From Candidatus Moraniibacteriota bacterium (lineage in GTDB: Bacteria > Patescibacteriota > Minisyncoccia > Moranbacterales > UBA2206), in the NCBI GenBank assembly GCA_003483065.1, contig DMWY01000001.1, positions 72,606 to 136,605 on the forward strand: a stretch of 64,000 bases of DNA, written 5' to 3'. This document shows positions 9,523-58,647 of this stretch, piece by piece. Each line of letters opens with the position of its first letter. The first letter of the stretch is position 1. The notes under the pieces are model-generated. The model made no database searches. It had not been told where the DNA came from and saw only the letters and a program-made list of their open reading frames with translations. The translations under genes were made by a program, and so were the position numbers.

Positions 9523-9531
9523 AATTTTCTT

Positions 9532-9564
9532 TACTAATTACTAATTTATTAAGAATATACTAAT
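9532..9564. repeat. TACTAAT heptamer array upstream of obg
   Basis: Three TACTAAT copies at 9532, 9539 and 9558. Related to the TACGAAT arrays at 11045, 54288 and 58173. Confidence 0.5.
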
Positions 9565-9614
9565 GCATTATTGTTTATATACTATACTGCAAATTTATTA
9601 ATTAGTAAAGGAAA

Positions 9615-9666
9615 TAAAAAAAACGCCCCGTGAGGAACGTTAGCAACGTTTTTTCTCCTCACGGGG
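9615..9666 (-). terminator. Rho-independent terminator downstream of yidD
   Basis: 11-bp GC-rich stem CCCCGTGAGGA / TCCTCACGGGG (9626-9636 / 9656-9666) followed on the minus strand by a U-run (A-run 9615-9623 on plus). Confidence 0.6.
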
Positions 9667-16330: not shown

Positions 16331-17866
16331 ATGGAAAGTTGGAAAAGAAAAGTGTTTTTTTGGATTTTAGTGCTACTGTTTTTTTTAACAGTGCCGGTTA
16401 TAATCCTCAATGCTAAGGGTTATCGCTTCGATAAGGATCGAGGTGTTTTTGTGCATAGCGGAACCATTACTTTCAAATCTAATCCACAAACTGTTGATGT
16501 AAAACTAAATAATGAGCTTTTCGAATCGAAAAAATTAAATCGAATAAATAGTTCTTTTAATGTTTCAGGTATTGTTCCGGGAGAATATAATGTTCAGGTC
16601 TCAGCTCCAGATTTTCAAACTTGGAGCAAAAAAACTCAGGTGCATAGTGGATTGGCCAGTGAATTTTGGAACGTGCTTCTTGTTCGAAAGGATTATGAAA
16701 AAGCTGAGCTTAATACCCCAGAAATTCAAAAATTCTTCACTTCTCCCAGAAATGATCTTTTGGCCTATATCACAAACAAAGAGAATGATTTGACTGTAAA
16801 TATTTTCAATATAGCGACAGGCTTAGTTGATCAAGAAATTAATTTTTCCGATTGGCAATTTATTGAAGATGCTAAAAAAGAAAATATTGAATGGTCCCCT
16901 GACAATTCTTTTTTGTCAGTGCCGGTTAAAAAATTAACAGAAATTACCCCACAAAAAGAAAAAAATATTCTCGTGAAAAATCCAGCAAAAAAGTTAGCCA
17001 GTGAAACACCTGTGGAGTATGAGTATAACTATTTTATTTATGATTTTGCCAATAAAAACAGTCTTAATCTCACTGAAATTTTGAATAAAAAAGAAATTCA
17101 TAACGTCAGGTGGGATCCGAGAGAGATTGGTTTTTTGTTTTTTCTAGAAAACAATATTCTTTTTCGGGTGGATATAAAAAATCCTCAAAATGCGGTTGAA
17201 ATCGCTTTGGATGTTTCCAGTTTTGATCTTTCGGGTTCCTATGTCTATTATGCTCAAAATTCAGGACTGTTATACAAAAATAGTTTGGACGGAAAAAACG
17301 AGCCGACTCAAATTACAAATAATTTTCCTGGTTTCCAAAGTGTCAAAATTTCCTCTGTGGTAGTTTATGATGATTCGAGAATTGCTTTGATTTTGGAGAA
17401 TAAGGATTTTTATATTTTCAATAAAGGTGATTACGGAGATTATTTTAGAAAATTAGCCGACAATATTGAAGAAGCGCATTTTTCCGATGATGGCAAAAAA
17501 ATTCTTTTCTGGTCAAACAATGAAATTTCTGTCTATTTTTTACGTGAACAACTTTCTCAACCAATTCGCCAAGAAAATGAAATGCAAAATATCACTCGCT
17601 ATAGCGAGCCGATCAAAAATGTTCAATGGTTCAAAGATTACGAGCACGTTATTTTCAATTCTGGGAAATGGATAAAAATTATCGAAATTGACCCGCGAGA
17701 TCATGCGAATTGCATGGATCTCATTAATACGGAGACGCTAAATCCTTTCGTTATCTACAATGGCGCCTTGGAGAAAATGTATTTCATTGACACAAAAGAT
17801 GCTATTGCTAACCTATTTTCCATAACCTTTCCCGAAAAAACTACTTTCTTCGGAATCGGCGGATAA
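16331..17866 (+). CDS. membrane-anchored protein with PEGA-like domain and beta-propeller (PD40/TolB-like) repeats
   Basis: N-terminal TM, a PEGA-like segment (VDVKLNNELFESK...GEYNVQVSAPDFQ) and repeated WSPD/FSDDGK beta-propeller-like motifs. Confidence 0.4.
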   Translation: MESWKRKVFFWILVLLFFLTVPVIILNAKGYRFDKDRGVFVHSGTITFKSNPQTVDVKLNNELFESKKLNRINSSFNVSGIVPGEYNVQVSAPDFQTWSKKTQVHSGLASEFWNVLLVRKDYEKAELNTPEIQKFFTSPRNDLLAYITNKENDLTVNIFNIATGLVDQEINFSDWQFIEDAKKENIEWSPDNSFLSVPVKKLTEITPQKEKNILVKNPAKKLASETPVEYEYNYFIYDFANKNSLNLTEILNKKEIHNVRWDPREIGFLFFLENNILFRVDIKNPQNAVEIALDVSSFDLSGSYVYYAQNSGLLYKNSLDGKNEPTQITNNFPGFQSVKISSVVVYDDSRIALILENKDFYIFNKGDYGDYFRKLADNIEEAHFSDDGKKILFWSNNEISVYFLREQLSQPIRQENEMQNITRYSEPIKNVQWFKDYEHVIFNSGKWIKIIEIDPRDHANCMDLINTETLNPFVIYNGALEKMYFIDTKDAIANLFSITFPEKTTFFGIGG

Positions 17867-17868
17867 AA

Positions 17869-17950
17869 GTATGCAAATAGCGCGCTACCTGCCTCGCGTC
17901 GACAAGCGGTCTCTGCGAGTCGAGGCGGGCGAATGCCGGACATGCGAATC
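17869..17950. repeat. GC-rich intergenic repeat (GTATGCAAATAGCGCG...CATGCGAAT family) with internal hairpin
   Basis: Shares GTATGCRAATAGCGCG and GCGAATGC...ACATGCGAAT blocks with 36229-36267. It sits between convergent genes and likely also serves as a terminator. Confidence 0.5.
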
Positions 17951-17957
17951 ACTAGAT

Positions 17958-18971
17958 TTATCTGTCTTTATAATTTTTCTCGTAGTAATTCTGGTATTCG
18001 CCAGATTTTATTTTTTTCCACCAACTTTCATTTTCTTTGTACCACTGAATAGTTTTTTTCATTCCATCTTCAAAAGAAGTTTTTGGCGTCCAGCCAAGTT
18101 CGTGCTGAATCTTGGAAGAATCAATTGAATAGCGTAAATCATGCCCTTTTCGATCTGCTACAAATTCAATCATTTTTTCGTCCTTGCCCATAAATTCTAG
18201 AATTTTATAGGTAATTTCTTTGTTAGTTTTTTCGCAGTTTCCACCAATGCAATAAGTTTCGCCAATTTTGCCTTTTTGCAAAATAAGATCAACTGCGCCG
18301 GAGTGATCTTCAACGTAGAGCCAATCGCGAACATTCATTCCATCGCCATAGAGTGGAATTTTTTTGTCTTCAATTAAATTTGTCACAAATAGTGGGATTA
18401 GTTTTTCTGGAAATTGATAGAAGCCATAATTATTAGAACAATTAGAAATTGTAATTGGCAGACCGAAAGTGTGAAAATAGGCTCGTACCAAGTGGTCTGA
18501 AGACGCTTTAGAGGCGCTGTAGGGGCTCCTGGGGTCATAAGGTGTGGTTTCATTGAAAGGTGCGTCATTTGGGCCAAGGGATCCAAAAACCTCGTCCGTG
18601 GAAACGTGATGAAAACGAATATTGCCATTTTGACGGGCTGCTTCCAATAAATTGAATGTGCCTAGGACATTCGTTCGAACAAAAGCTTCTGGTCCTAAGA
18701 TTGAGCGATCTACATGTGATTCAGCGGCGTAGTGCACGATGGCATCTGGTTTTTCATCGGAAATTATTTCGTTGATTTTTTCTTTGTCGGAAATATCAGC
18801 TTTGACAAATTTATAATTCGGATTATTTTCAATAGATTTCAAATTTTCCAAATTGCCGGCATAAGTCAAGGCGTCTAAATTGACGATTTTGTCCTCGGGA
18901 TGTTTTTCGATCCAATAGTGAATAAAATTTGAACCGATGAACCCTGCACCTCCTGTGACTAATAGTTTCAT
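17958..18971 (-). CDS. rfbB: dTDP-glucose 4,6-dehydratase
   Basis: TGGAGFIGSNF Rossmann motif, YSASKASSD catalytic YxxxK, and RmlB-specific C-terminal region. Confidence 0.9.
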   Translation of the reverse strand: MKLLVTGGAGFIGSNFIHYWIEKHPEDKIVNLDALTYAGNLENLKSIENNPNYKFVKADISDKEKINEIISDEKPDAIVHYAAESHVDRSILGPEAFVRTNVLGTFNLLEAARQNGNIRFHHVSTDEVFGSLGPNDAPFNETTPYDPRSPYSASKASSDHLVRAYFHTFGLPITISNCSNNYGFYQFPEKLIPLFVTNLIEDKKIPLYGDGMNVRDWLYVEDHSGAVDLILQKGKIGETYCIGGNCEKTNKEITYKILEFMGKDEKMIEFVADRKGHDLRYSIDSSKIQHELGWTPKTSFEDGMKKTIQWYKENESWWKKIKSGEYQNYYEKNYKDR

Positions 18972-42275: not shown

Positions 42276-44129
42276 CTATTTTTTCAATACTGACAAAAAA
42301 GCTTCTGGCGGGATAGAAACTCGCCCAATATTCTTCATTTTCTTTTTGCCTTTTTTCTGTTTTTCTAAAAGTTTTCTTTTTCTAGTGATATCCCCACCAT
42401 AAAGTCCACTAATCACATCTTTTCGAAAAGCCTTAATAGTTTCTCTGGCAATTATTTTTCCACCAATAGAAGCCTGGATAGCCACTTGAAAATTTTGTCG
42501 AGGGATAACATCTTTGAGTTTTGTCACTACTCTTTTTCCTTCTGAATTAGCCTTTTCTCTTGGCACAATCCGCGAAAAAGCTTCAATTTTTTCTTCCGCT
42601 ACTAAAATGTCCATTTTTACCAAATCATATGAGCGATAATCTTTGACTTCATAATTCATCGAAGCATAGCCCGAAGAAGCACTTTTCAAATCATCATGCA
42701 AATTTGTCACCACATCTGTGAGTGGACAATCAAATTTAATCACCATTCTTTCGCTGTCCAGATATTCAGTGTCTTGATACTGTGCTCGAGTATTGTTCAT
42801 TACTTCCATAATCGGACCTAGATAATTAGAAGGAGAAACAATTTCCAAGCTCACATATGGCTCAAAAACCTCTTCTATTTCAGAAGGATCAGGAAATTCT
42901 GTCGGTGAATAAACTTTGATTCGCCCCTTATCATTTCGCAGTTTTATTTCATAAACAACACTGGGAGTAGTGACGGTTGGATTGATTTGGAATTCTCTTT
43001 GCAAGCGAGATTGAATAATTTCTAAATGCAAAAGTCCCAAAAATCCGCAACGAAAACCACGTCCCAAGGCTAAATTAGATTCTGGTTCAAAAACAAATGA
43101 GGCATCATTGAGCTTGAGTTTGTCGAGTGAATCACGCATCAAATTATAGTCATCACCTTCGACTGGATAGAAACTGGCATAAACCATCGGCACCACCTCC
43201 TTGTACCCAGGTAGTGGAACTACCTGGGTCGCAGACTCACGCAGACTTGACGCTGACCTTCGCTGAATTTTTTCCGCGTTTTTCCGCGTTCCGTCCGCGT
43301 TAGTCCGCGACGTAATCGTATCGCCTACCTTGCATTCCCCGACGCTTTTGAGTCCTGTGGCAATATAGCCAATTTCACCTACGGAAAGTTTTTCTGCTTT
43401 CACAAGTTCTGGCTTGAAATAACCTACTTCAATCACATCACTTTTTTTGTCATTTATCATCATAATAATTTCTTCTTCGGCCCGAATTTCGCCGTCAAAA
43501 ACCCGCACATGCGCCAACACACCCTTATAGGTATCATATTTTGAATCAAAAATAAGTGCCCGCAAAGTTTTTTGAGAATCTCCAATAGGCGCCGGAATTT
43601 TTTCCACAATTATTTCCAAAAGTTTGGCAACGCCCTGTCCGGTCTTACCAGAAACTTCCAAAATTTCTTCTTCTTTGCACCCCAAGATATGCACTATTTC
43701 TTTTTTGACTTTTTCTACGTTTGCATTTGGCAAATCAATTTTGTTGACCACAGGAATAATTTCCAAATTATGCTCAATGGCTTGATAGAGATTAGCCAAG
43801 GTTTGCGCCTGCACACCCTTGGTCGCATCCACCAAAAGCACTGCCCCTTCTACCGCTGCGAGTGACCGCGAAACTTCATACCCAAAATCCACATGTCCTG
43901 GGGTGTCAATTAAGTTGAAAATATACTCCTTATAATTCATGCGCACGGGTTGCATCTTAATGGTAATCCCTCGTTCCCGTTCCAAATCCATCTGATCCAA
44001 AAGTTGCTCTTTCATTTTGCGTTTTTCAATCGTCCCTGTCATTTCCAACATCCGATCAGACAAAGTCGATTTCCCATGGTCAATGTGAGCGATTATGCAA
44101 AAATTTCGAATATTGTTTTTTTCTGACAT
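42276..44129 (-). CDS. lepA: translation elongation factor 4 (LepA)
   Basis: G-domain (AHIDHGKST, DTPGHVDF) and the LepA-specific C-terminal domain. Confidence 0.9.
   Translation of the reverse strand: MSEKNNIRNFCIIAHIDHGKSTLSDRMLEMTGTIEKRKMKEQLLDQMDLERERGITIKMQPVRMNYKEYIFNLIDTPGHVDFGYEVSRSLAAVEGAVLLVDATKGVQAQTLANLYQAIEHNLEIIPVVNKIDLPNANVEKVKKEIVHILGCKEEEILEVSGKTGQGVAKLLEIIVEKIPAPIGDSQKTLRALIFDSKYDTYKGVLAHVRVFDGEIRAEEEIIMMINDKKSDVIEVGYFKPELVKAEKLSVGEIGYIATGLKSVGECKVGDTITSRTNADGTRKNAEKIQRRSASSLRESATQVVPLPGYKEVVPMVYASFYPVEGDDYNLMRDSLDKLKLNDASFVFEPESNLALGRGFRCGFLGLLHLEIIQSRLQREFQINPTVTTPSVVYEIKLRNDKGRIKVYSPTEFPDPSEIEEVFEPYVSLEIVSPSNYLGPIMEVMNNTRAQYQDTEYLDSERMVIKFDCPLTDVVTNLHDDLKSASSGYASMNYEVKDYRSYDLVKMDILVAEEKIEAFSRIVPREKANSEGKRVVTKLKDVIPRQNFQVAIQASIGGKIIARETIKAFRKDVISGLYGGDITRKRKLLEKQKKGKKKMKNIGRVSIPPEAFLSVLKK
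43205..43312. repeat. GC-rich hairpin plus TCCGCGT direct repeats embedded in-frame in lepA
   Basis: ACCCAGGTAG-tggaa-CTACCTGGGT (43205-43229) then four TCCGCG(T) copies (43268-43312). Encodes ~20 extra residues (DGTRKNAEKIQRRSASSLRESATQV) between conserved GDTIT and PLPGYKEV. Confidence 0.65.
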
Positions 44130-44192: not shown

Positions 44193-45029
44193 TTAATCTA
44201 GCGGACTTTTAATTTTTCTCAAGGCTGGATTAGTCACTTTGGTATAAATTTGTGTTGTTCTAATGTTAGCATGCCCCAAGAGCTCTTGTACATAGCGCAC
44301 GTCTGTTCCATTTTCGAGTAAGTGTGTCGCAAAACTATGTCGAAGTGAATGAAATGTGGCTTCTTTTTTTATCCCCGCTTTTTTCATGGCATTTTCAAAA
44401 ACTTTTTGCGCTGTCCTCTCGGTTAATTTCCCCTGCCTCATCGGCAGACAAGCTCCGCGTTCACTGGCAAAAAAATAATCATTAGAATTTTTATTGGCAA
44501 TTAATTTTTCTACATCCGCCACGAGCTTTTCCGGAAAAACCGTAATGCGATCTTTGTTGCCTTTAGCTCCTTTGATATGAATGATAAGTTCCGCCAAATT
44601 TATATCCTTGATTTTCAAATTAATAATCTCACTCACGCGTAGCCCTCCAGAATATGCCAACGCCACCATTAATTTGTGTTTTTCATTGGAAATTTCCGCC
44701 AATATTTTTCCAATTTCATCTCGAGACAAAACGATCGGTAATTTACTTGGCGTTTTGGCGAAATGAATGTCAATTTTTCCTCTATATTTCAAAACATTCC
44801 AACAGAAAAAGTTTATCGCTTGCAAATTTTGATTAGTAGTTTGTGACGACTTCCCATCATCAATTTTGGACAATATATATCGCTTGATAAAATCAATGTC
44901 TACTTTTCCAAAATTATCTTTTTTGGCTTTTAGATAATTTTCAACACAAGCCGAATATGCTTTCACAGTTTTTGGACTATATTTTCTCAATCTCAACTCA
45001 TCTTCTAATTTTTTCAAATAGACGTCCAT
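44193..45029 (-). CDS. tyrosine recombinase (XerC/XerD-like integrase)
   Basis: Full catalytic set R...K...HxxR...H...Y (GGLRVSE, GAKGNKDR, HSLRHSFATH, LGHANI, TQIYTKV). 278 aa. Confidence 0.8.
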   Translation of the reverse strand: MDVYLKKLEDELRLRKYSPKTVKAYSACVENYLKAKKDNFGKVDIDFIKRYILSKIDDGKSSQTTNQNLQAINFFCWNVLKYRGKIDIHFAKTPSKLPIVLSRDEIGKILAEISNEKHKLMVALAYSGGLRVSEIINLKIKDINLAELIIHIKGAKGNKDRITVFPEKLVADVEKLIANKNSNDYFFASERGACLPMRQGKLTERTAQKVFENAMKKAGIKKEATFHSLRHSFATHLLENGTDVRYVQELLGHANIRTTQIYTKVTNPALRKIKSPLD

Positions 45030-46099: not shown

Positions 46100-46310
46100 A
46101 ACTTCAGATGATGCCGAAACGATATGCAAAATGTCTCTCCCTACGGTCGTTCCATTTTGCATATCGTGCGCGCCTGACGGACGCTGACATGCTCTGTGCC
46201 GTCCCTTCGGGAGCGACACATCGCATATCAGCGCCTATCCAAAATTTCCCTTCGAAAACCCTTCGGGATTTTCTCGGAAAACTTCGGATCAGGCGCGCAC
46301 GTTAAACGAA
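46100..46310. ncRNA. candidate structured RNA of unknown class (GC-rich)
   Basis: Perfect 14-bp hairpin CGATATGCAAAATG/CATTTTGCATATCG (46120-46166). An 11-bp long-range helix TGCGCGCCTGA (46167-46177) / TCAGGCGCGCA (46289-46299) encloses several CCC-TTCG-GGA tetraloop hairpins. ~55% GC in a ~34% GC background. Strand undetermined. Confidence 0.35.
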
Positions 46311-46440
46311 ATTTTGTTCAAAAATATTTTTTCATTTTATATTTGAGCCCTTTTGAAATTTTTTGGGAAAGAAAAAACCGCCTTGGAAAACCTTGGCGGA
46401 AGCAGTTGGTCTGCTCAGTCCATGTACGAAATTAGTTGGG

Positions 46441-55551: not shown

Positions 55552-56655
55552 TTATTTAACAAGGCGAAATTCCTTCCATTCCTTATCAATATATTCCTTT
55601 ATTCTAGCCTTAAATATCTCTTTGTCAAATTTAAAAACTCTTTGCCTGATATAATCCGGGTCATAATCAGAATTTTTGAATTTTCTAACTGCTTCAATTA
55701 AATCCTCAGCTGTTTGATGCGCAAAAAACACTCCTGTTTTCCCTTCTTCCATATGTTCAAGAATGTCGCCACCATCATAGGCAATAAGCGGTGTGCCTGA
55801 AGCCATAGCCTCAATAGCAGTAAGTCCAAAATCTTCTTCTTGTGGAAAGATAAACGCTTGGCAACGAGAAAAATATTTTTGCAATTCTTCGTCGCTAACT
55901 CGTCCAAGAATTTTAATATTTGGCCCAGCCATTTTTTTAAGTCTTTCCATTTCTGGTCCACGCCCAAGAATTCTAAGTGGTAATCCTAATTTATTGAAAG
56001 CTTCGATAGCAATATCAAAACGTTTATACGCCATCAAACGCCCGGCAATCAAAAAATAATCATCTTTTTCGCGACTAATTTTGAAATTATTAACATTCAC
56101 CGGCGGATTTATCACAACACTTCCTCGTCTGAAATATTTTTTTATCCGGCGCGAAACAAAAAAAGAATTAGCAATTATTTTATCCGGTCGTTCGGCGCTT
56201 ACTCGATCCCAAATCCGAATATAATTCATAAAAAATGGCACGAGCTTTTTGATAAAATTAGGAAAATAAAAATCGCGATTGTATTTTTGGCAATCATCCC
56301 AAGCAAAACGCATTGGCGTGTGCATATAACAAATATGCAAAGTTTTTGGCCCCGTAATTATGCCTTTGGCAAAACTAGAAGAATCAGATAATACAATATC
56401 ATAATCAGAAAAATCAAATTGTTCAATGGCAAAAGGCATAAATTGCGGAAAAATTCGATGCCTTCCCACCGCAAAAGGGATTTTTTGCAAAAAAGAAGTC
56501 TTGATTTTTTTGTCCGCAAAACTGCCATGCATCAGTTTTTTGCTATAAACAAGGGTGTATATTGGCGCATAGGGAAAAAGCTCACAAAAAGCTTCTAGCA
56601 CTTTTTCCGCTCCCCCATTTTGAACAAGATAATCGTGGACTAAAGCAATCTTCAT
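55552..56655 (-). CDS. glycosyltransferase family 4
   Basis: EDFGLTAIEAMASGTPLIA GT4 signature. Confidence 0.85.
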   Translation of the reverse strand: MKIALVHDYLVQNGGAEKVLEAFCELFPYAPIYTLVYSKKLMHGSFADKKIKTSFLQKIPFAVGRHRIFPQFMPFAIEQFDFSDYDIVLSDSSSFAKGIITGPKTLHICYMHTPMRFAWDDCQKYNRDFYFPNFIKKLVPFFMNYIRIWDRVSAERPDKIIANSFFVSRRIKKYFRRGSVVINPPVNVNNFKISREKDDYFLIAGRLMAYKRFDIAIEAFNKLGLPLRILGRGPEMERLKKMAGPNIKILGRVSDEELQKYFSRCQAFIFPQEEDFGLTAIEAMASGTPLIAYDGGDILEHMEEGKTGVFFAHQTAEDLIEAVRKFKNSDYDPDYIRQRVFKFDKEIFKARIKEYIDKEWKEFRLVK

Positions 56656-56747
56656 TTTAGCATATTAGCATTTTAGCATATTAGCATCAGTATTATACGC
56701 ATTTTATTTTTGTTAAAATGTTAATAAGCTAATATGTTAAAATGATC
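56656..56747 (-). promoter_or_regulatory. ATGCTAA heptamer array / tandem extended -10-like elements abutting the GT4 start codon
   Basis: The minus strand reads ...TATAATACTG ATGCTAATATGCTAAAATGCTAATATGCTAAAATG|AAG. A 14-mer unit (TGCTAATATGCTAAAA) is repeated twice, and the opposite-orientation motif TTTTTGTTAAAATGTTAA is also present. Confidence 0.45.
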
Positions 56748-58163: not shown

Positions 58164-58172
58164 GTTATTCTT

Positions 58173-58205
58173 TACGAATTACTAATCTCTTACTAATATA
58201 CTAAT
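58173..58205. repeat. TACGAAT/TACTAAT heptamer array upstream of the priming transferase
   Basis: TACGAAT at 58173; TACTAAT at 58180, 58191 and 58199. Confidence 0.5.
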
Positions 58206-58296
58206 TTTAATCAAATTTAATCAGTGGTGGAAAAATAATAAACTCACATTAGTATATTCGTATAAAATTCGTAATTGGTAAAGATTTTGAGCATAT

Positions 58297-58647
58297 ATCA
58301 AGGCAAATCTATAAGCCGGATTTTGTCGAGAATGATCATTTATCTAGTCCCGATATTACTATCGGGATCAAGCGGTACTTCTTATTCTTACTAGTGTAGA
58401 ACAAGACACGACCTTGCATCCAGGTAAGGATTTAGCCGTTTCACCCCAATATTACTATTGGATTCGCCCCGCCCTTTATAAATAAAAAGCTGGGTGCTCA
58501 ACCTTTCGGTTTCGCACGTCTCTGCTCGCACCTCTTAGATTGCTCTAGATGGGTGTTACCCACTACCCTTTCCGCCTCTTCGGCGGATAAATGTCCGGAC
58601 TTTCCTCTCTGACTTTACGTCAGGGCGATCATTCAATTTGCCTTGAT
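58297..58647 (-). ncRNA. rnpB: RNase P RNA (bacterial type A)
   Basis: The minus strand reads GAGGAAAGTCCGGAC (P4 5' strand), GGGTAACACCC, AGAGCAA and the 3' P4 strand ACAAAATCCGGCTTATAG. P1 pairs 5' CAAGGCAAAT with 3' ATTTGCCTTG. ~351 nt, ORF-free and GC-enriched. Confidence 0.8.

What the first reader, a model, noticed from the sequence alone, without database searches (positions are those of the whole stretch)
43205..43312. In-frame GC-rich hairpin plus TCCGCGT direct repeats inside lepA
Between the conserved GDTIT and PLPGYKEV segments, LepA here carries about 20 extra residues. They are encoded by a 10-bp-stem perfect hairpin (ACCCAGGTAG/CTACCTGGGT) followed by four TCCGCG(T) direct repeats, ~65% GC. 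The combination of hairpin and short direct repeats looks like a miniature inserted element or an excision scar. The frame is preserved and the gene is otherwise intact.
Basis: partly seen in the sequence, partly recalled or inferred. Interest (0 to 1): 0.6.

Follow-up and report, generated by a model that had tools for sequence, protein, structure and literature searches.

The report
In-frame palindromic repeat element in lepA
The extra ~20-26 residues in this Moranbacteria LepA come from an 82-base selfish palindromic DNA element, built of 10-base repeats, that also sits in frame in many other housekeeping genes of similar bacteria and resembles the palindromic elements of Rickettsia.

Summary
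lepA (42276-44129, minus strand) has a 32-codon loop between GDTIT and LPGYK, against 8-13 codons in most relatives. The loop is 56% GC in a 36% GC window.

The anatomy was only half seen. The four TCCGCG repeats are one arm of an 82-nt palindrome (43229-43310). It has four CGCGGA units spaced 10-11-10, a 6-nt loop, then four inverted TCAGCG/TCTGCG units. The "perfect hairpin" is a separate junction hairpin, and its 3' arm is the host's own LPGY codons.

Low-GC contigs carry the same 82-nt architecture in frame in IleRS, enolase, a pseudouridine synthase and a P-type ATPase. Reversed copies lie in RecG, LigA and Def.

Longer copies enclose a GxxExxY (PD-(D/E)XK) nuclease gene between the same arrays, including in-frame copies in relatives' LepA G domain.

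Best reading: an ORF-less, translated copy of a mobile palindromic element family, analogous to Rickettsia palindromic elements. Mobilisation by the nuclease is inferred, not shown. No Rfam family and no paper in the searched library matches it.

The parts
42276..44129 (-). lepA (elongation factor 4), 617 aa, otherwise intact host gene
   Evidence: ORF list. Pfam GTP_EFTU, GTP_EFTU_D2, EFG_C and LepA_C. 100% match to Moranbacteria GW2011_GWF2_36_839 EF4.
43215..43310 (-). 32-codon loop between GDTIT (end of domain II) and LPGYK: SRTNADGTRKNAEKIQRRSASSLRESATQVVP
   Evidence: Baseline loop is 8-13 aa in relatives. GC is 56%. AlphaFold2 gives pLDDT below 50 and coil for residues 277-301.
43229..43310 (-). 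Element core, 82 nt: four CGCGGA units, a 6-nt loop, four inverted units. Folds into one long imperfect hairpin (-41 kcal/mol).
   Evidence: The same 82-nt length and 10-11-10 spacing occur in L081, L084 and L100, and on one strand reading of L195. Consensus structure is kept in 12 copies from at least 4 named host genes.
43273..43309 (-). 5' arm (sense strand): four direct CGCGGA units spaced 10, 11 and 10 nt. This gives a 21-nt (7-codon) period, read as RTNADGTRKNAE.
   Evidence: TCCGCG at 43273, 43283, 43294 and 43304 on the + strand. TRF period 10, 4 copies. Spacing.
43267..43272 (-). Apical loop AAAAAT (sense) of the long hairpin
   Evidence: The stretch ACGCGGAAAAAATTCAGCG is identical in the IleRS-borne copy in L100.
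43230..43266 (-). 3' arm (sense strand): four inverted units TCAGCG, TCAGCG, TCTGCG, TCTGCG. The TCTGCG units pair with CGCGGA through a G.U/G.T wobble on this strand only.
   Evidence: CGCAGA at 43230 and 43240, CGCTGA at 43251 and 43261 on the + strand. Fold. Strand asymmetry across the family.
43205..43229 (-). Junction hairpin, 11-bp perfect stem and 3-nt loop. The 5' arm is loop codons (A)CC CAG GTA GT (T-Q-V-V). The 3' arm is A CTA CCT GGG T, that is the last base of the Pro codon plus the host L-P-G-Y codons.
   Evidence: Two compensatory pair changes against L086: GTT..CCA CTA becomes ACT..CCG TTA. Absent in L087, L088 and L209.

Best explanation
The insert is an ORF-less copy of a mobile palindromic element. 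The core is 82 nt, of which 78 nt (26 codons) are new coding sequence. It sits in the surface linker between LepA domains II and III and is translated as part of the protein.

Architecture. The element is built from decamer units. Four CGCGGA units form the 5' arm, a short A-rich loop follows, and four inverted TC(C/T/A)GCG units form the 3' arm.

The coding subfamily. In the version found inside genes of low-GC, CPR-like genomes, the units are spaced 10-11-10 nt. Two units therefore equal 7 codons, and one forward frame (..RT[NHY]AD.TR..AEK..) and one reverse frame (..SPR.SALSPR.SA..) stay open. Copies that land in tolerant loops of essential genes can survive for that reason.

Longer relatives. 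Longer members of the family carry a GxxExxY (PF13366/TIGR04256, PD-(D/E)XK fold) gene between the same inverted arrays. I infer that this nuclease, supplied in trans, binds the helically phased arrays and drives spread of the short copies.

Shown:
- the anatomy of the element;
- lineage-specific presence in LepA;
- recurrence in frame in many unrelated genes;
- the physical association with GxxExxY genes;
- a conserved, strand-specific hairpin.

Inferred:
- mobility itself, from the patchy distribution and the many insertion sites;
- translation, from frame and stop-codon statistics;
- the nuclease as mobiliser;
- the origin of the junction hairpin, either templated snap-back synthesis at insertion or later selection for a rod-like fold.
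For: 1. Lineage specificity. The loop is 32 aa here and 8-13 aa in most relatives. With the loop excluded, P0001 and P0002 (insert present) and P0003-P0006 (insert absent) are all ~98% identical. P0007, at 89%, again carries the insert.

2. Recurrence elsewhere. 52 matches had a recognisable inverted arm.

3. Same element in other genes. In low-GC contigs it is in frame in an IleRS-like synthetase (2 copies), enolase, a PseudoU_synth_2 protein, a P-type ATPase (2 copies) and UvrA (half copy). It is reversed in RecG, LigA and Def. Host identities were confirmed by Pfam. Where the reading frame could be followed across the element (9 genes), the ORF continues into conserved host sequence.

4. 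Spacing. 10/11 alternation occurs in 15 of 20 low-GC matches but only 3 of 114 high-GC matches.

5. Nuclease association. GxxExxY ORFs lie between inverted arrays in L084/L085 and L117 (in frame in the LepA G domain), L135, L191 and L116, and next to an array in L206, L124 and L174. Of three CPR GxxExxY genes fetched independently of the DNA pattern, L212 has clear 4+4 arrays, L210 has a clear 3' array, and L211 has degenerate ones. Many free-standing GxxExxY proteins begin or end with array-encoded peptides such as MNTDKK.. and ..PRKSA.

6. Constraint on the DNA. Window versus L084: the loop segment that carries the element is 92.7% identical, the flanks 82-84%, and third codon positions 60-64%. 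Window versus L088: 84% against 67-72% and 41-47%.

7. Conserved hairpin. 28 consensus pairs are kept across 12 copies, 6 of them with double changes. Second-arm variants are C->T 39 times and G->A 4 times, so wobble pairs fall on one strand.

8. Structural tolerance. The insert is predicted as low-confidence coil between two domains.
Against: - Only one copy occurs in the 64-kb window, and none occurs in 1.49 Mb of LepA-flanking DNA from 88 loci other than in lepA itself. Multi-copy status in this genome is therefore not shown.
- No GxxExxY gene lies in the window.
- No target-site duplication or defined transposon end was found.
- The nearest insert-free alleles have a different 13-aa loop rather than a clean empty site, so the insertion event itself is not reconstructed.
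- The junction and its hairpin are shared by LepA genes only 80-89% identical. That fits one old insertion plus loss or recombination as well as it fits recent mobility.
- No transcript or peptide data exist.
- The pattern search also picks up plain tandem repeats and phage-borne direct arrays without an inverted arm. Not every hit belongs to one family.
Confidence: 0.75

Rival explanations
1. Local origin. The linker is a tolerant, hypervariable loop. The repeats arose in place by replication slippage of a 10/21-nt unit, and the palindrome arose by template switching. No mobile element is involved.
For: - The loop is hypervariable in Moranbacteria, from 8 to 40 aa, with several unrelated insert types.
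- Possibly decayed heptad-like versions exist (RTNEKRIRTNEK, SRINANLARMDAN).
- L088 has only the direct-repeat half.
- The junction hairpin clearly formed from host codons in place.
Against: - The same 82-nt 4+4 architecture, with the same 10-11-10 spacing, frame and loop sequence, occurs in IleRS, enolase, RluD-type, ATPase, RecG and LigA genes of other contigs.
- The same arrays flank GxxExxY genes.
- A 56% GC tract is unlikely to be generated from 39% GC local sequence.
Confidence: 0.06
2. Host-selected function. The structured RNA in the lepA message (for example a ribosome pause between domains II and III, or an RNase site), or the extra peptide itself, is kept because it benefits the cell.
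For: - The element is more conserved than synonymous sites in the flanks.
- The fold is very stable (z = -5.8) on the sense strand.
- The junction hairpin is maintained by compensatory changes.
- Other CPR lineages carry different GC-rich hairpins in the same loop, for example L023 and L025.
Against: - Sister strains ~98% identical outside the loop do without it.
- The G.U polarity follows the element and not the host gene. Reversed copies in RecG, LigA and Def have the wobble-competent strand antisense to the mRNA.
- The same element sits in functionally unrelated genes and, in other genomes, between genes.
- The peptide is predicted to be disordered.
Confidence: 0.12
3. The element is not translated. 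It is removed from the RNA, like the RNase III-excised intervening sequences of 23S rRNA, or bypassed by the ribosome, like T4 gene 60 or mitochondrial byp elements. Mature LepA would then lack the insert.
For: - It forms a long stable hairpin.
- Both the short and the ORF-bearing copies are bounded by pairing arms, as rRNA intervening sequences are. The comparison with rRNA intervening sequences rests on general knowledge.
Against: - Every in-gene copy whose frame could be followed keeps the frame and is free of stops. That covers 9 host genes, and reversed copies use the one open reverse frame.
- The in-gene subfamily has the 21-nt period that keeps a frame open. Neither property is needed if the segment is excised or bypassed.
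- By my rough estimate, about 0.09 of random 82-nt inserts would satisfy both conditions, so nine in a row is about 4e-10.
- No rejoining mechanism for bacterial mRNA is known that would act here.
Confidence: 0.05
4. Assembly or binning artefact, that is a chimeric join inside lepA.
For: None specific. MAG contigs can contain misjoins at repeats.
Against: - The identical protein is on 5 contigs in NCBI, JGI, ENA and Logan.
- Near-identical inserts are in independent assemblies L081, L082, L084 and L085.
- The frame and flanking synteny are intact.
Confidence: 0.01

Closest known systems
Rickettsia palindromic elements (RPE)
   Same: - Short palindromic selfish DNA inserted in frame into unrelated housekeeping genes of a reduced-genome bacterium.
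- Read through as extra peptide and apparently tolerated by the protein fold.
- No transposase inside the short copies.
(RPE properties as summarised in PMC10969869; this element.)
   Different: - The host phylum is Patescibacteria/CPR.
- It is shorter: 82 nt against ~100-150 bp.
- It is built from tandem 10-nt units with a 21-nt coding period.
- Related arrays are found in contigs from 31 to 71% GC.
- Longer relatives carry a GxxExxY nuclease gene, whereas no enzyme is linked to RPEs.
- Sequence similarity to RPE consensus sequences was not tested.
REP / REPIN elements with their RAYT transposase
   Same: Short hairpin repeats whose presumed mobilising enzyme gene is itself flanked by inverted copies of the repeat. 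The hairpin is strand-specific. (REP/RAYT properties from general knowledge; here.)
   Different: - The associated enzyme is a PD-(D/E)XK-fold GxxExxY protein, not an HUH/Y1 IS200/IS605-type transposase.
- REPs are extragenic by definition, while these copies are intragenic and translated.
- The arms are arrays of 3-8 decamers rather than a single ~20-35-nt palindrome.
Prokaryotic MITEs that make in-frame fusions (intragenic ERIC, Correia, and others)
   Same: Small, lacking a transposase, with inverted-repeat ends, occasionally inserted in ORFs as in-frame fusions (PMC10969869).
   Different: - No target-site duplication was found here.
- The whole element is a hairpin rather than two short terminal repeats around unique sequence.
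- The candidate autonomous partner is not an IS transposase.
Intervening sequences (IVS) of 23S rRNA
   Same: Extended stem-loop insertions in a conserved gene. Some enclose a small ORF between pairing arms. (General knowledge; the architecture here is.)
   Different: - The host gene encodes a protein.
- The frame is preserved and stop-free, which argues for translation rather than RNase III excision.
- No test of processing was possible.
Coding palindromes and GC-rich palindromic clusters of mitochondrial genes (Nematomorpha; yeast GC clusters and byp elements)
   Same: Inverted repeats embedded in protein-coding sequence. GC-rich hairpins in an AT-rich genome. (PMC6649704 is listed; the rest is general knowledge.)
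   Different: - Those are organellar and have different sequences.
- Byp elements are bypassed and need not be in frame.
- There is no link to a nuclease gene with matching arms.

Membership tests
   Window 43229-43310 has 4+4 units and a 6-nt loop. The same layout was seen in 52 of the pattern matches.
   Spacing is [10, 11, 10] and the peptide is SRTNADGTRKNAEK. This is shared with the copies in L100, L185, L166 and L200. One search shows the enrichment in low-GC contigs.
   The window has TCTGCG twice in the 3' arm. Family-wide the count is 39 C->T against 4 G->A. G.U is the commonest pair at two consensus positions.
   The window copy has a 6-nt loop and no ORF, and there is no GxxExxY ORF anywhere in the 64 kb. 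It would be the ORF-less form.
Rickettsia palindromic elements | Palindromic element inserted in frame in protein-coding genes and compatible with the protein fold | tested here: met
Rickettsia palindromic elements | Sequence similarity to an RPE family consensus, and occurrence in Rickettsia | not tested
The host is Moranbacteria, so homology is not expected.
MITE | Terminal inverted repeats, small size, no transposase | tested here: met
   82 nt, inverted arms, no ORF.
MITE | Target-site duplication flanking the element | tested here: inconclusive
   No direct duplication was seen at the lepA, IleRS or RluD-type junctions. Short inverted duplications of host sequence were seen instead. No clean empty site was available.
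MITE | Multiple copies per genome | tested here: inconclusive
   There is one copy in this 64-kb window. There are two copies in one gene in L100 and in L200, and at least 7 in 10 kb in L113. The whole genome was not available.
REP/REPIN-RAYT system | Associated HUH/Y1 (IS200/IS605-like) RAYT gene flanked by the repeats, with an extragenic location | tested here: not met
   The flanked gene is PF13366/TIGR04256, a PD-(D/E)XK fold. The copy here is intragenic.
Intein, or group I/II intron | Hint/splicing domain, or a catalytic intron RNA | tested here: not met
   Pfam finds only LepA domains. Rfam finds nothing at 43100-43420 at E <= 1. 82 nt is far too short.
Any Rfam 15 family | Covariance-model match at or near the gathering score | tested here: not met
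   Window at gathering threshold: only RNase P. The local region at E <= 1: none. Across 14 element-bearing loci: only tRNAs and sub-threshold miRNA-like hairpin matches.

The most novel reading that the evidence does not exclude
The decamer arrays are the recognition ends of a previously unrecognised class of mobile elements driven by GxxExxY PD-(D/E)XK nucleases.

The full-length forms, and their ORF-less 82-nt derivatives, colonise surface loops of essential genes in CPR bacteria in frame. LepA is colonised at two separate sites. They also populate intergenic DNA across many phyla.

If true, this would give a first function to the large PF13366/TIGR04256 family. It would also mean that a measurable part of the 'extra' sequence in CPR housekeeping proteins is selfish DNA.
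Probability: 0.35. Interest if true: 0.8.

Novelty: new variant of a known kind. Interest (0 to 1): 0.62.

Why it matters
- **A second case of a rare phenomenon.** In-frame palindromic selfish DNA in housekeeping genes has mainly been known from Rickettsia. An independent, architecturally different case in another reduced-genome lineage suggests the phenomenon is general. It would be a source of loop insertions, and possibly of new peptide segments, in essential proteins.
- **A functional lead for an uncharacterised family.** The element is physically tied to GxxExxY proteins, a very large family listed with unknown function (PMC3424549). That makes a concrete and testable proposal: a nuclease that recognises helically phased decamer arrays.
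- **A practical caution.** Length variation and 'CPR-specific insertions' in marker proteins such as LepA, IleRS or enolase can be mobile DNA. Such segments should be masked in alignments, phylogenies and structure predictions.

Tried and rejected
**Searches that gave nothing**
- A protein word search with the insert peptide. A 55-aa concatenate found 23 candidates and no hit at E <= 10.
- An exhaustive phmmer search of the 32-aa loop against 1.84 billion representatives gave 0 hits at E <= 0.001. The query is too short and compositionally biased, so protein-level census was not possible.
- Rfam gave no family match.
- Literature searches for GxxExxY, PDDEXK_3, the repeat sequences themselves, CPR with palindromic and in-frame, and Patescibacteria MITEs gave nothing relevant.

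**Searches of limited use**
- The genome-contig scan with LepA returned mostly distant CPR LepA loci. The best was 89% and most were 52-79%, and it did not return this genome. It served to establish the baseline loop length, not to census the genome.
- Looking for further copies in the window and in 1.49 Mb of LepA-flanking DNA found only the lepA copies.

**Ideas considered and rejected**
- An excision scar: there is no footprint logic, and a complete element is present.
- An intein or intron: no such domains or RNA, and too short.
- A link to the tyrosine recombinase gene just upstream of lepA (44193-45029). That gene is syntenic in both insert-bearing and insert-free relatives, so no link is indicated.
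- The viral-contig scan found 18 stretches. Most were direct arrays upstream of phage genes or plain tandem repeats without an inverted arm, so they are not informative for this insert.
Full report
**1. What is at the coordinates**

lepA is a 617-aa ORF on the minus strand (42276-44129). It has all LepA domains and is 100% identical to elongation factor 4 of Candidatus Moranbacteria GW2011_GWF2_36_839. The sense strand across the finding reads:

GGC GAT ACG ATT ACG | TCG CGG ACT AAC GCG GAC GGA ACG CGG AAA AAC GCG GAA AAA ATT CAG CGA AGG TCA GCG TCA AGT CTG CGT GAG TCT GCG ACC CAG GTA GTT CCA | CTA CCT GGG TAC

which translates as GDTIT | SRTNADGTRKNAEKIQRRSASSLRESATQVVP | LPGY.

- The inverted repeat is perfect, with 11-nt arms and a 3-nt loop (43205-43215 and 43219-43229).
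- TCCGCG occurs at 43273, 43283, 43294 and 43304.
- GC of the flagged interval is 57%, not 65%. The rest of lepA is 39% and the window 36%.
- This is the longest GC-rich island in the window.

**2.

Downstream of the four CGCGGA units, on the sense strand, lie four inverted units: TCAGCG, TCAGCG, TCTGCG and TCTGCG. On the + strand these read CGCTGA at 43261 and 43251, and CGCAGA at 43240 and 43230. The eight units form one 82-nt imperfect hairpin of -41 kcal/mol.

With the adjacent perfect hairpin, the sense strand of 43190-43325 folds at -62 kcal/mol, against -40.3 +/- 3.8 for shuffles (z = -5.8). The unit spacing is 10, 11 and 10 nt. Two units therefore equal 21 nt, or 7 codons, which keeps the reading frame open.

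The 3' arm of the 'perfect hairpin' is not foreign DNA: apart from its first base it is the L-P-G-Y codons of the conserved LPGYK motif. The 5' arm (T-Q-V-V) occupies the place where relatives have the ordinary loop end, such as ..KVEP or ..VTEP.

**3. Is the insert lineage-specific?**

Yes.
- Among the 120 closest LepA proteins, the GDTIT-LPGYK loop is 8-10 aa in most. That matches the 7-10 aa seen in most other CPR LepA loci.
- With the loop excluded, P0001 and P0002 (insert present) and P0003-P0006 (a 13-aa loop MLKVKGQ.SN.EP, no insert) are all ~98% identical.
- P0007, at 89%, has the insert with the same junctions.
- More distant LepAs (P0016, P0017 and P0024, at about 80% outside the loop) have diverged copies. 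P0096 has only the direct-repeat half.
- The insert is present in independent assemblies, so it is not an artefact.
- Flank identities switch rank on the two sides of the loop. Upstream, L081 is 95% and L083 88% identical to the window. Downstream, they are 89% and 91%. This suggests recombination within lepA and may explain part of the patchiness.

**4. Is it found elsewhere?**

The pattern ACGCGGA-N3/4-ACGCGGA-N3/4-ACGCGGA has 21 specified bases. 52 matches have a recognisable inverted arm of TCCGCG-type units after a short loop.

The typical high-GC form is ..GG ACGCGGATGA ACGCGGATGA ACGCGGAT .. ATCCGCGTTCATCCGCGTCC.. with strict 10-nt spacing. Low-GC contigs instead show the 10/11 alternation seen in the window: 15 of 20 matches, against 3 of 114 in high-GC contigs.

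In those low-GC contigs the element lies inside long ORFs that continue into conserved host sequence. Host identities were confirmed by Pfam.

| Orientation | Host gene | Locus |
|---|---|---|
| Forward | IleRS-like class I synthetase, two copies | L100 |
| Forward | Enolase | L155 |
| Forward | PseudoU_synth_2 protein | L185 |
| Forward | P-type ATPase, two copies | L200 |
| Forward, half copy | UvrA | L147 |
| Reverse | RecG | L112 |
| Reverse | NAD-dependent DNA ligase | L179 |
| Reverse | Peptide deformylase | L190 |

- Forward copies all use the frame ..RT[NHY]AD.TR..AEK.. The other forward frames are not used in any copy, and some units close them with TAA/TGA. Reverse copies read ..SPR.SALSPR.SA..
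- The first IleRS copy is also 82 nt long. It shares the 19-nt stretch ACGCGGAAAAAATTCAGCG with the window copy.
- A consensus hairpin of 28 pairs is kept across 12 copies from LepA, IleRS, the RluD-type gene, the ATPase and three further contigs whose host gene was not identified. Six pairs show double changes, and G.U is the commonest pair at two positions.

**5. Link to a nuclease gene**

LepA of P0007 (L084/L085) and LepA in L117 carry a whole GxxExxY domain in frame in the G domain, between VRMxY and NLIDTPGH. The domain matches PF13366 PDDEXK_3 and TIGR04256 (E = 6e-36). It is bounded upstream by ACGCGGAT-type units and downstream by inverted ATCCGC/ATCAGCG units.

- In the pattern-ascertained loci, GxxExxY ORFs lie between inverted arrays in L135, L191 and L116, with 414-791 nt between the arms. 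They abut an array in L206, L124 and L174.
- Three CPR GxxExxY genes were fetched by protein identity, so they are not biased by the DNA pattern. L212 has clear 4+4 inverted arrays, L210 has a clear 3' array, and L211 has degenerate ones.
- Many free-standing GxxExxY proteins begin or end with array-encoded peptides, such as MNTDKK.., MSADKK.. and ..PRKSA.
- The ORF is on the strand that begins with ACGCGGA.
- The window has no GxxExxY ORF.

**6. Strand polarity**

Conditioned on a perfect first arm, second-arm variants are C->T in 39 cases and G->A in 4. The hairpin therefore tolerates G.U/G.T wobble on one strand only, the strand that is the sense strand of the nuclease ORF in long copies.

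In reversed in-gene copies (RecG, LigA) that strand is antisense to the host mRNA. The polarity therefore belongs to the element and not to host gene expression. This argues against a host-mRNA regulatory role as the primary reason the element exists. It argues for a single-stranded form of the element itself, either its own transcript or single-stranded DNA.

**7. Constraint**

The loop segment that carries the element is more conserved than its strongly constrained coding flanks.

| Comparison | Loop segment with element | Flanks | Third codon positions |
|---|---|---|---|
| Window vs L084 | 92.7% | 82-84% | 60-64% |
| Window vs L088 | 84% | 67-72% | 41-47% |

Either nucleotide-level selection (for structure or for a protein-binding site) or repeated homogenisation is acting. 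I cannot separate the two.

**8. The junction hairpin**

It is present in the window, L081/L082, L084/L085 and L086, and absent in L087, L088 and L209.
- Between the window and L086, two synonymous changes in host codons (CCA to CCG, CTA to TTA) are matched by GTT to ACT in the loop codon. Both pairs are preserved.
- Similar hairpins made partly of host codons flank the element at three other places. At the 5' lepA junction of L081 and L086 the sequence is ATAAC-ttc-GTTAT. At the 5' junction of the first IleRS copy, the arm GCCCAGGTTCA is the A-Q-V-H codons. At the 3' junction in the RluD-type gene the sequence is GTGCC-ggaa-GGCAC.
- I have no tested explanation. Snap-back templated synthesis during end-joining of the element, or later selection for a continuous rod-like fold, are both possible. 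No target-site duplication was seen.

**9. The protein**

An AlphaFold2 model built from 66 homologues has mean pLDDT 67.8. It gives pLDDT below 50 and coil for residues 277-301, between well-modelled domain II and domain III. This is consistent with a tolerated surface loop. The model is only moderate, so it is weak evidence.

**10. Comparison with known systems**

- Functionally the closest is the Rickettsia palindromic element: in-frame, palindromic, in unrelated essential genes, and compatible with protein folds (PMC10969869).
- In organisation it also recalls REP/REPIN elements, whose RAYT gene is flanked by the repeats. The enzyme family here is different, however, and these copies are intragenic.
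- It is not in Rfam 15.
- I found no description in the searchable literature. PF13366 is listed there with unknown function. Absence from that library is not proof that it is undescribed.

**11. Verdict**

The 'miniature inserted element' reading is supported.

- **High confidence:** the insert is a copy of a recurrent palindromic decamer-array element that is read through in frame.
- **Medium confidence:** it is, or was, mobile.
- **Lower confidence (about one in three):** GxxExxY nucleases mobilise it.

I rate it a new variant of a known kind (RPE-like in-frame selfish palindromes), of moderate to high interest.

Noticed in passing
L084 1010-3325 (P0007); L117 230-2578 (-); protein fragments P0156, P0167, P0209, P0210, P0222: Relatives' LepA carries an entire GxxExxY/PDDEXK_3 nuclease domain in frame in the G domain, between VRMxY and NLIDTPGH, bounded by inverted decamer arrays. 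The window's LepA is uninterrupted at that site (..RMNYKEYIFNLIDTPGH..).
   Followed up: yes
L209 8752-10644 (P0017): This LepA has a diverged copy of the 4+4 element in the II-III loop. It also has a different low-complexity insert (PKISNEIQNDNFQNSDSEF) at the same G-domain site used by the GxxExxY insertions. LepA therefore has two recurrent insertion hot spots.
   Followed up: partly
L023 10805-10903, L025 10497-10607; proteins P0046, P0015, P0043, P0084, P0013, P0023, P0025: The same GDTIT-LPGYK loop holds unrelated inserts in other CPR lineages. Falkowbacteria have a 74-78% GC hairpin (TLTPCPLSRGAGEGK..). Other types include 'PFGKGGLKGDL..PLLKGEG', 'IQNPNSK' and 'ANLAYRQAG'. Several look like other palindromic repeat families.
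   Followed up: partly
window 58169-58284, 56652-56745, 9524-9615: AT-rich intergenic palindromes built from short tandem units (TTACTAAT/ACGAAT, TTAGCAT) followed by inverted copies. Each lies just outside an ORF end, and one lies next to the RNase P RNA gene (58296-58644). They may be AT-rich analogues of the decamer-array hairpins, or terminators.
   Followed up: partly
window 46119-46312: A GC-rich intergenic stretch with nested inverted repeats: a perfect 15-bp pair at 46119-46133 and 46153-46167, and GCGCGCCTGA/TCAGGCGCGC about 110 nt apart. No ORF of 90 aa or more overlaps it, and there is no Rfam match at the gathering threshold. It may be an unannotated structured RNA.
   Followed up: no
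window 17843-17971: The GC-richest 80-nt window outside lepA (0.64). It lies between converging ORFs and contains a GC-rich hairpin (GCCTCGCGTCGAC..GAGTCGAGGCGGGC). Its nature was not determined.
   Followed up: no
L100 3338-7084: The IleRS-like ORF that carries two copies of the 82-nt element also has a histidine-phosphatase (His_Phos_1) domain embedded in the synthetase (residues 520-701).
   Followed up: no
L026 6995-9313: RecJ (DHH, DHHA1, RecJ_OB) with a C-terminal GxxExxY/PDDEXK_3 domain in the same ORF, about 2.2 kb downstream of that contig's lepA.
   Followed up: no
L106, L134, L169, L176, L178, L194, L201, L207: A conserved high-GC subfamily in which the three-unit array sits inside a ~130-nt element with its own terminal inverted repeats: TAGACTTCATCGGAAATAGG ... 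CTCTAATTTCCGATGAACTCTA.
   Followed up: no
L215, L216, L218, L227, L230 (IMG/VR contigs): In high-GC viral contigs, direct ACGCGGAT arrays without an inverted arm recur immediately upstream of a GGAAGGA-type ribosome-binding site and a start codon. Up to 5 copies occur on one contig. This suggests the array alone may serve as a protein-binding or regulatory site.
   Followed up: no
L211 1-1511: An FtsH gene with an intein (Intein_splicing, LAGLIDADG), directly followed by a free-standing GxxExxY gene with degenerate flanking arrays.
   Followed up: no
window 44193-45029 (-): A tyrosine recombinase (XerC/D-like) gene lies immediately upstream of lepA. It is syntenic in relatives both with and without the insert, so it is probably unrelated to the insert.
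   Followed up: partly
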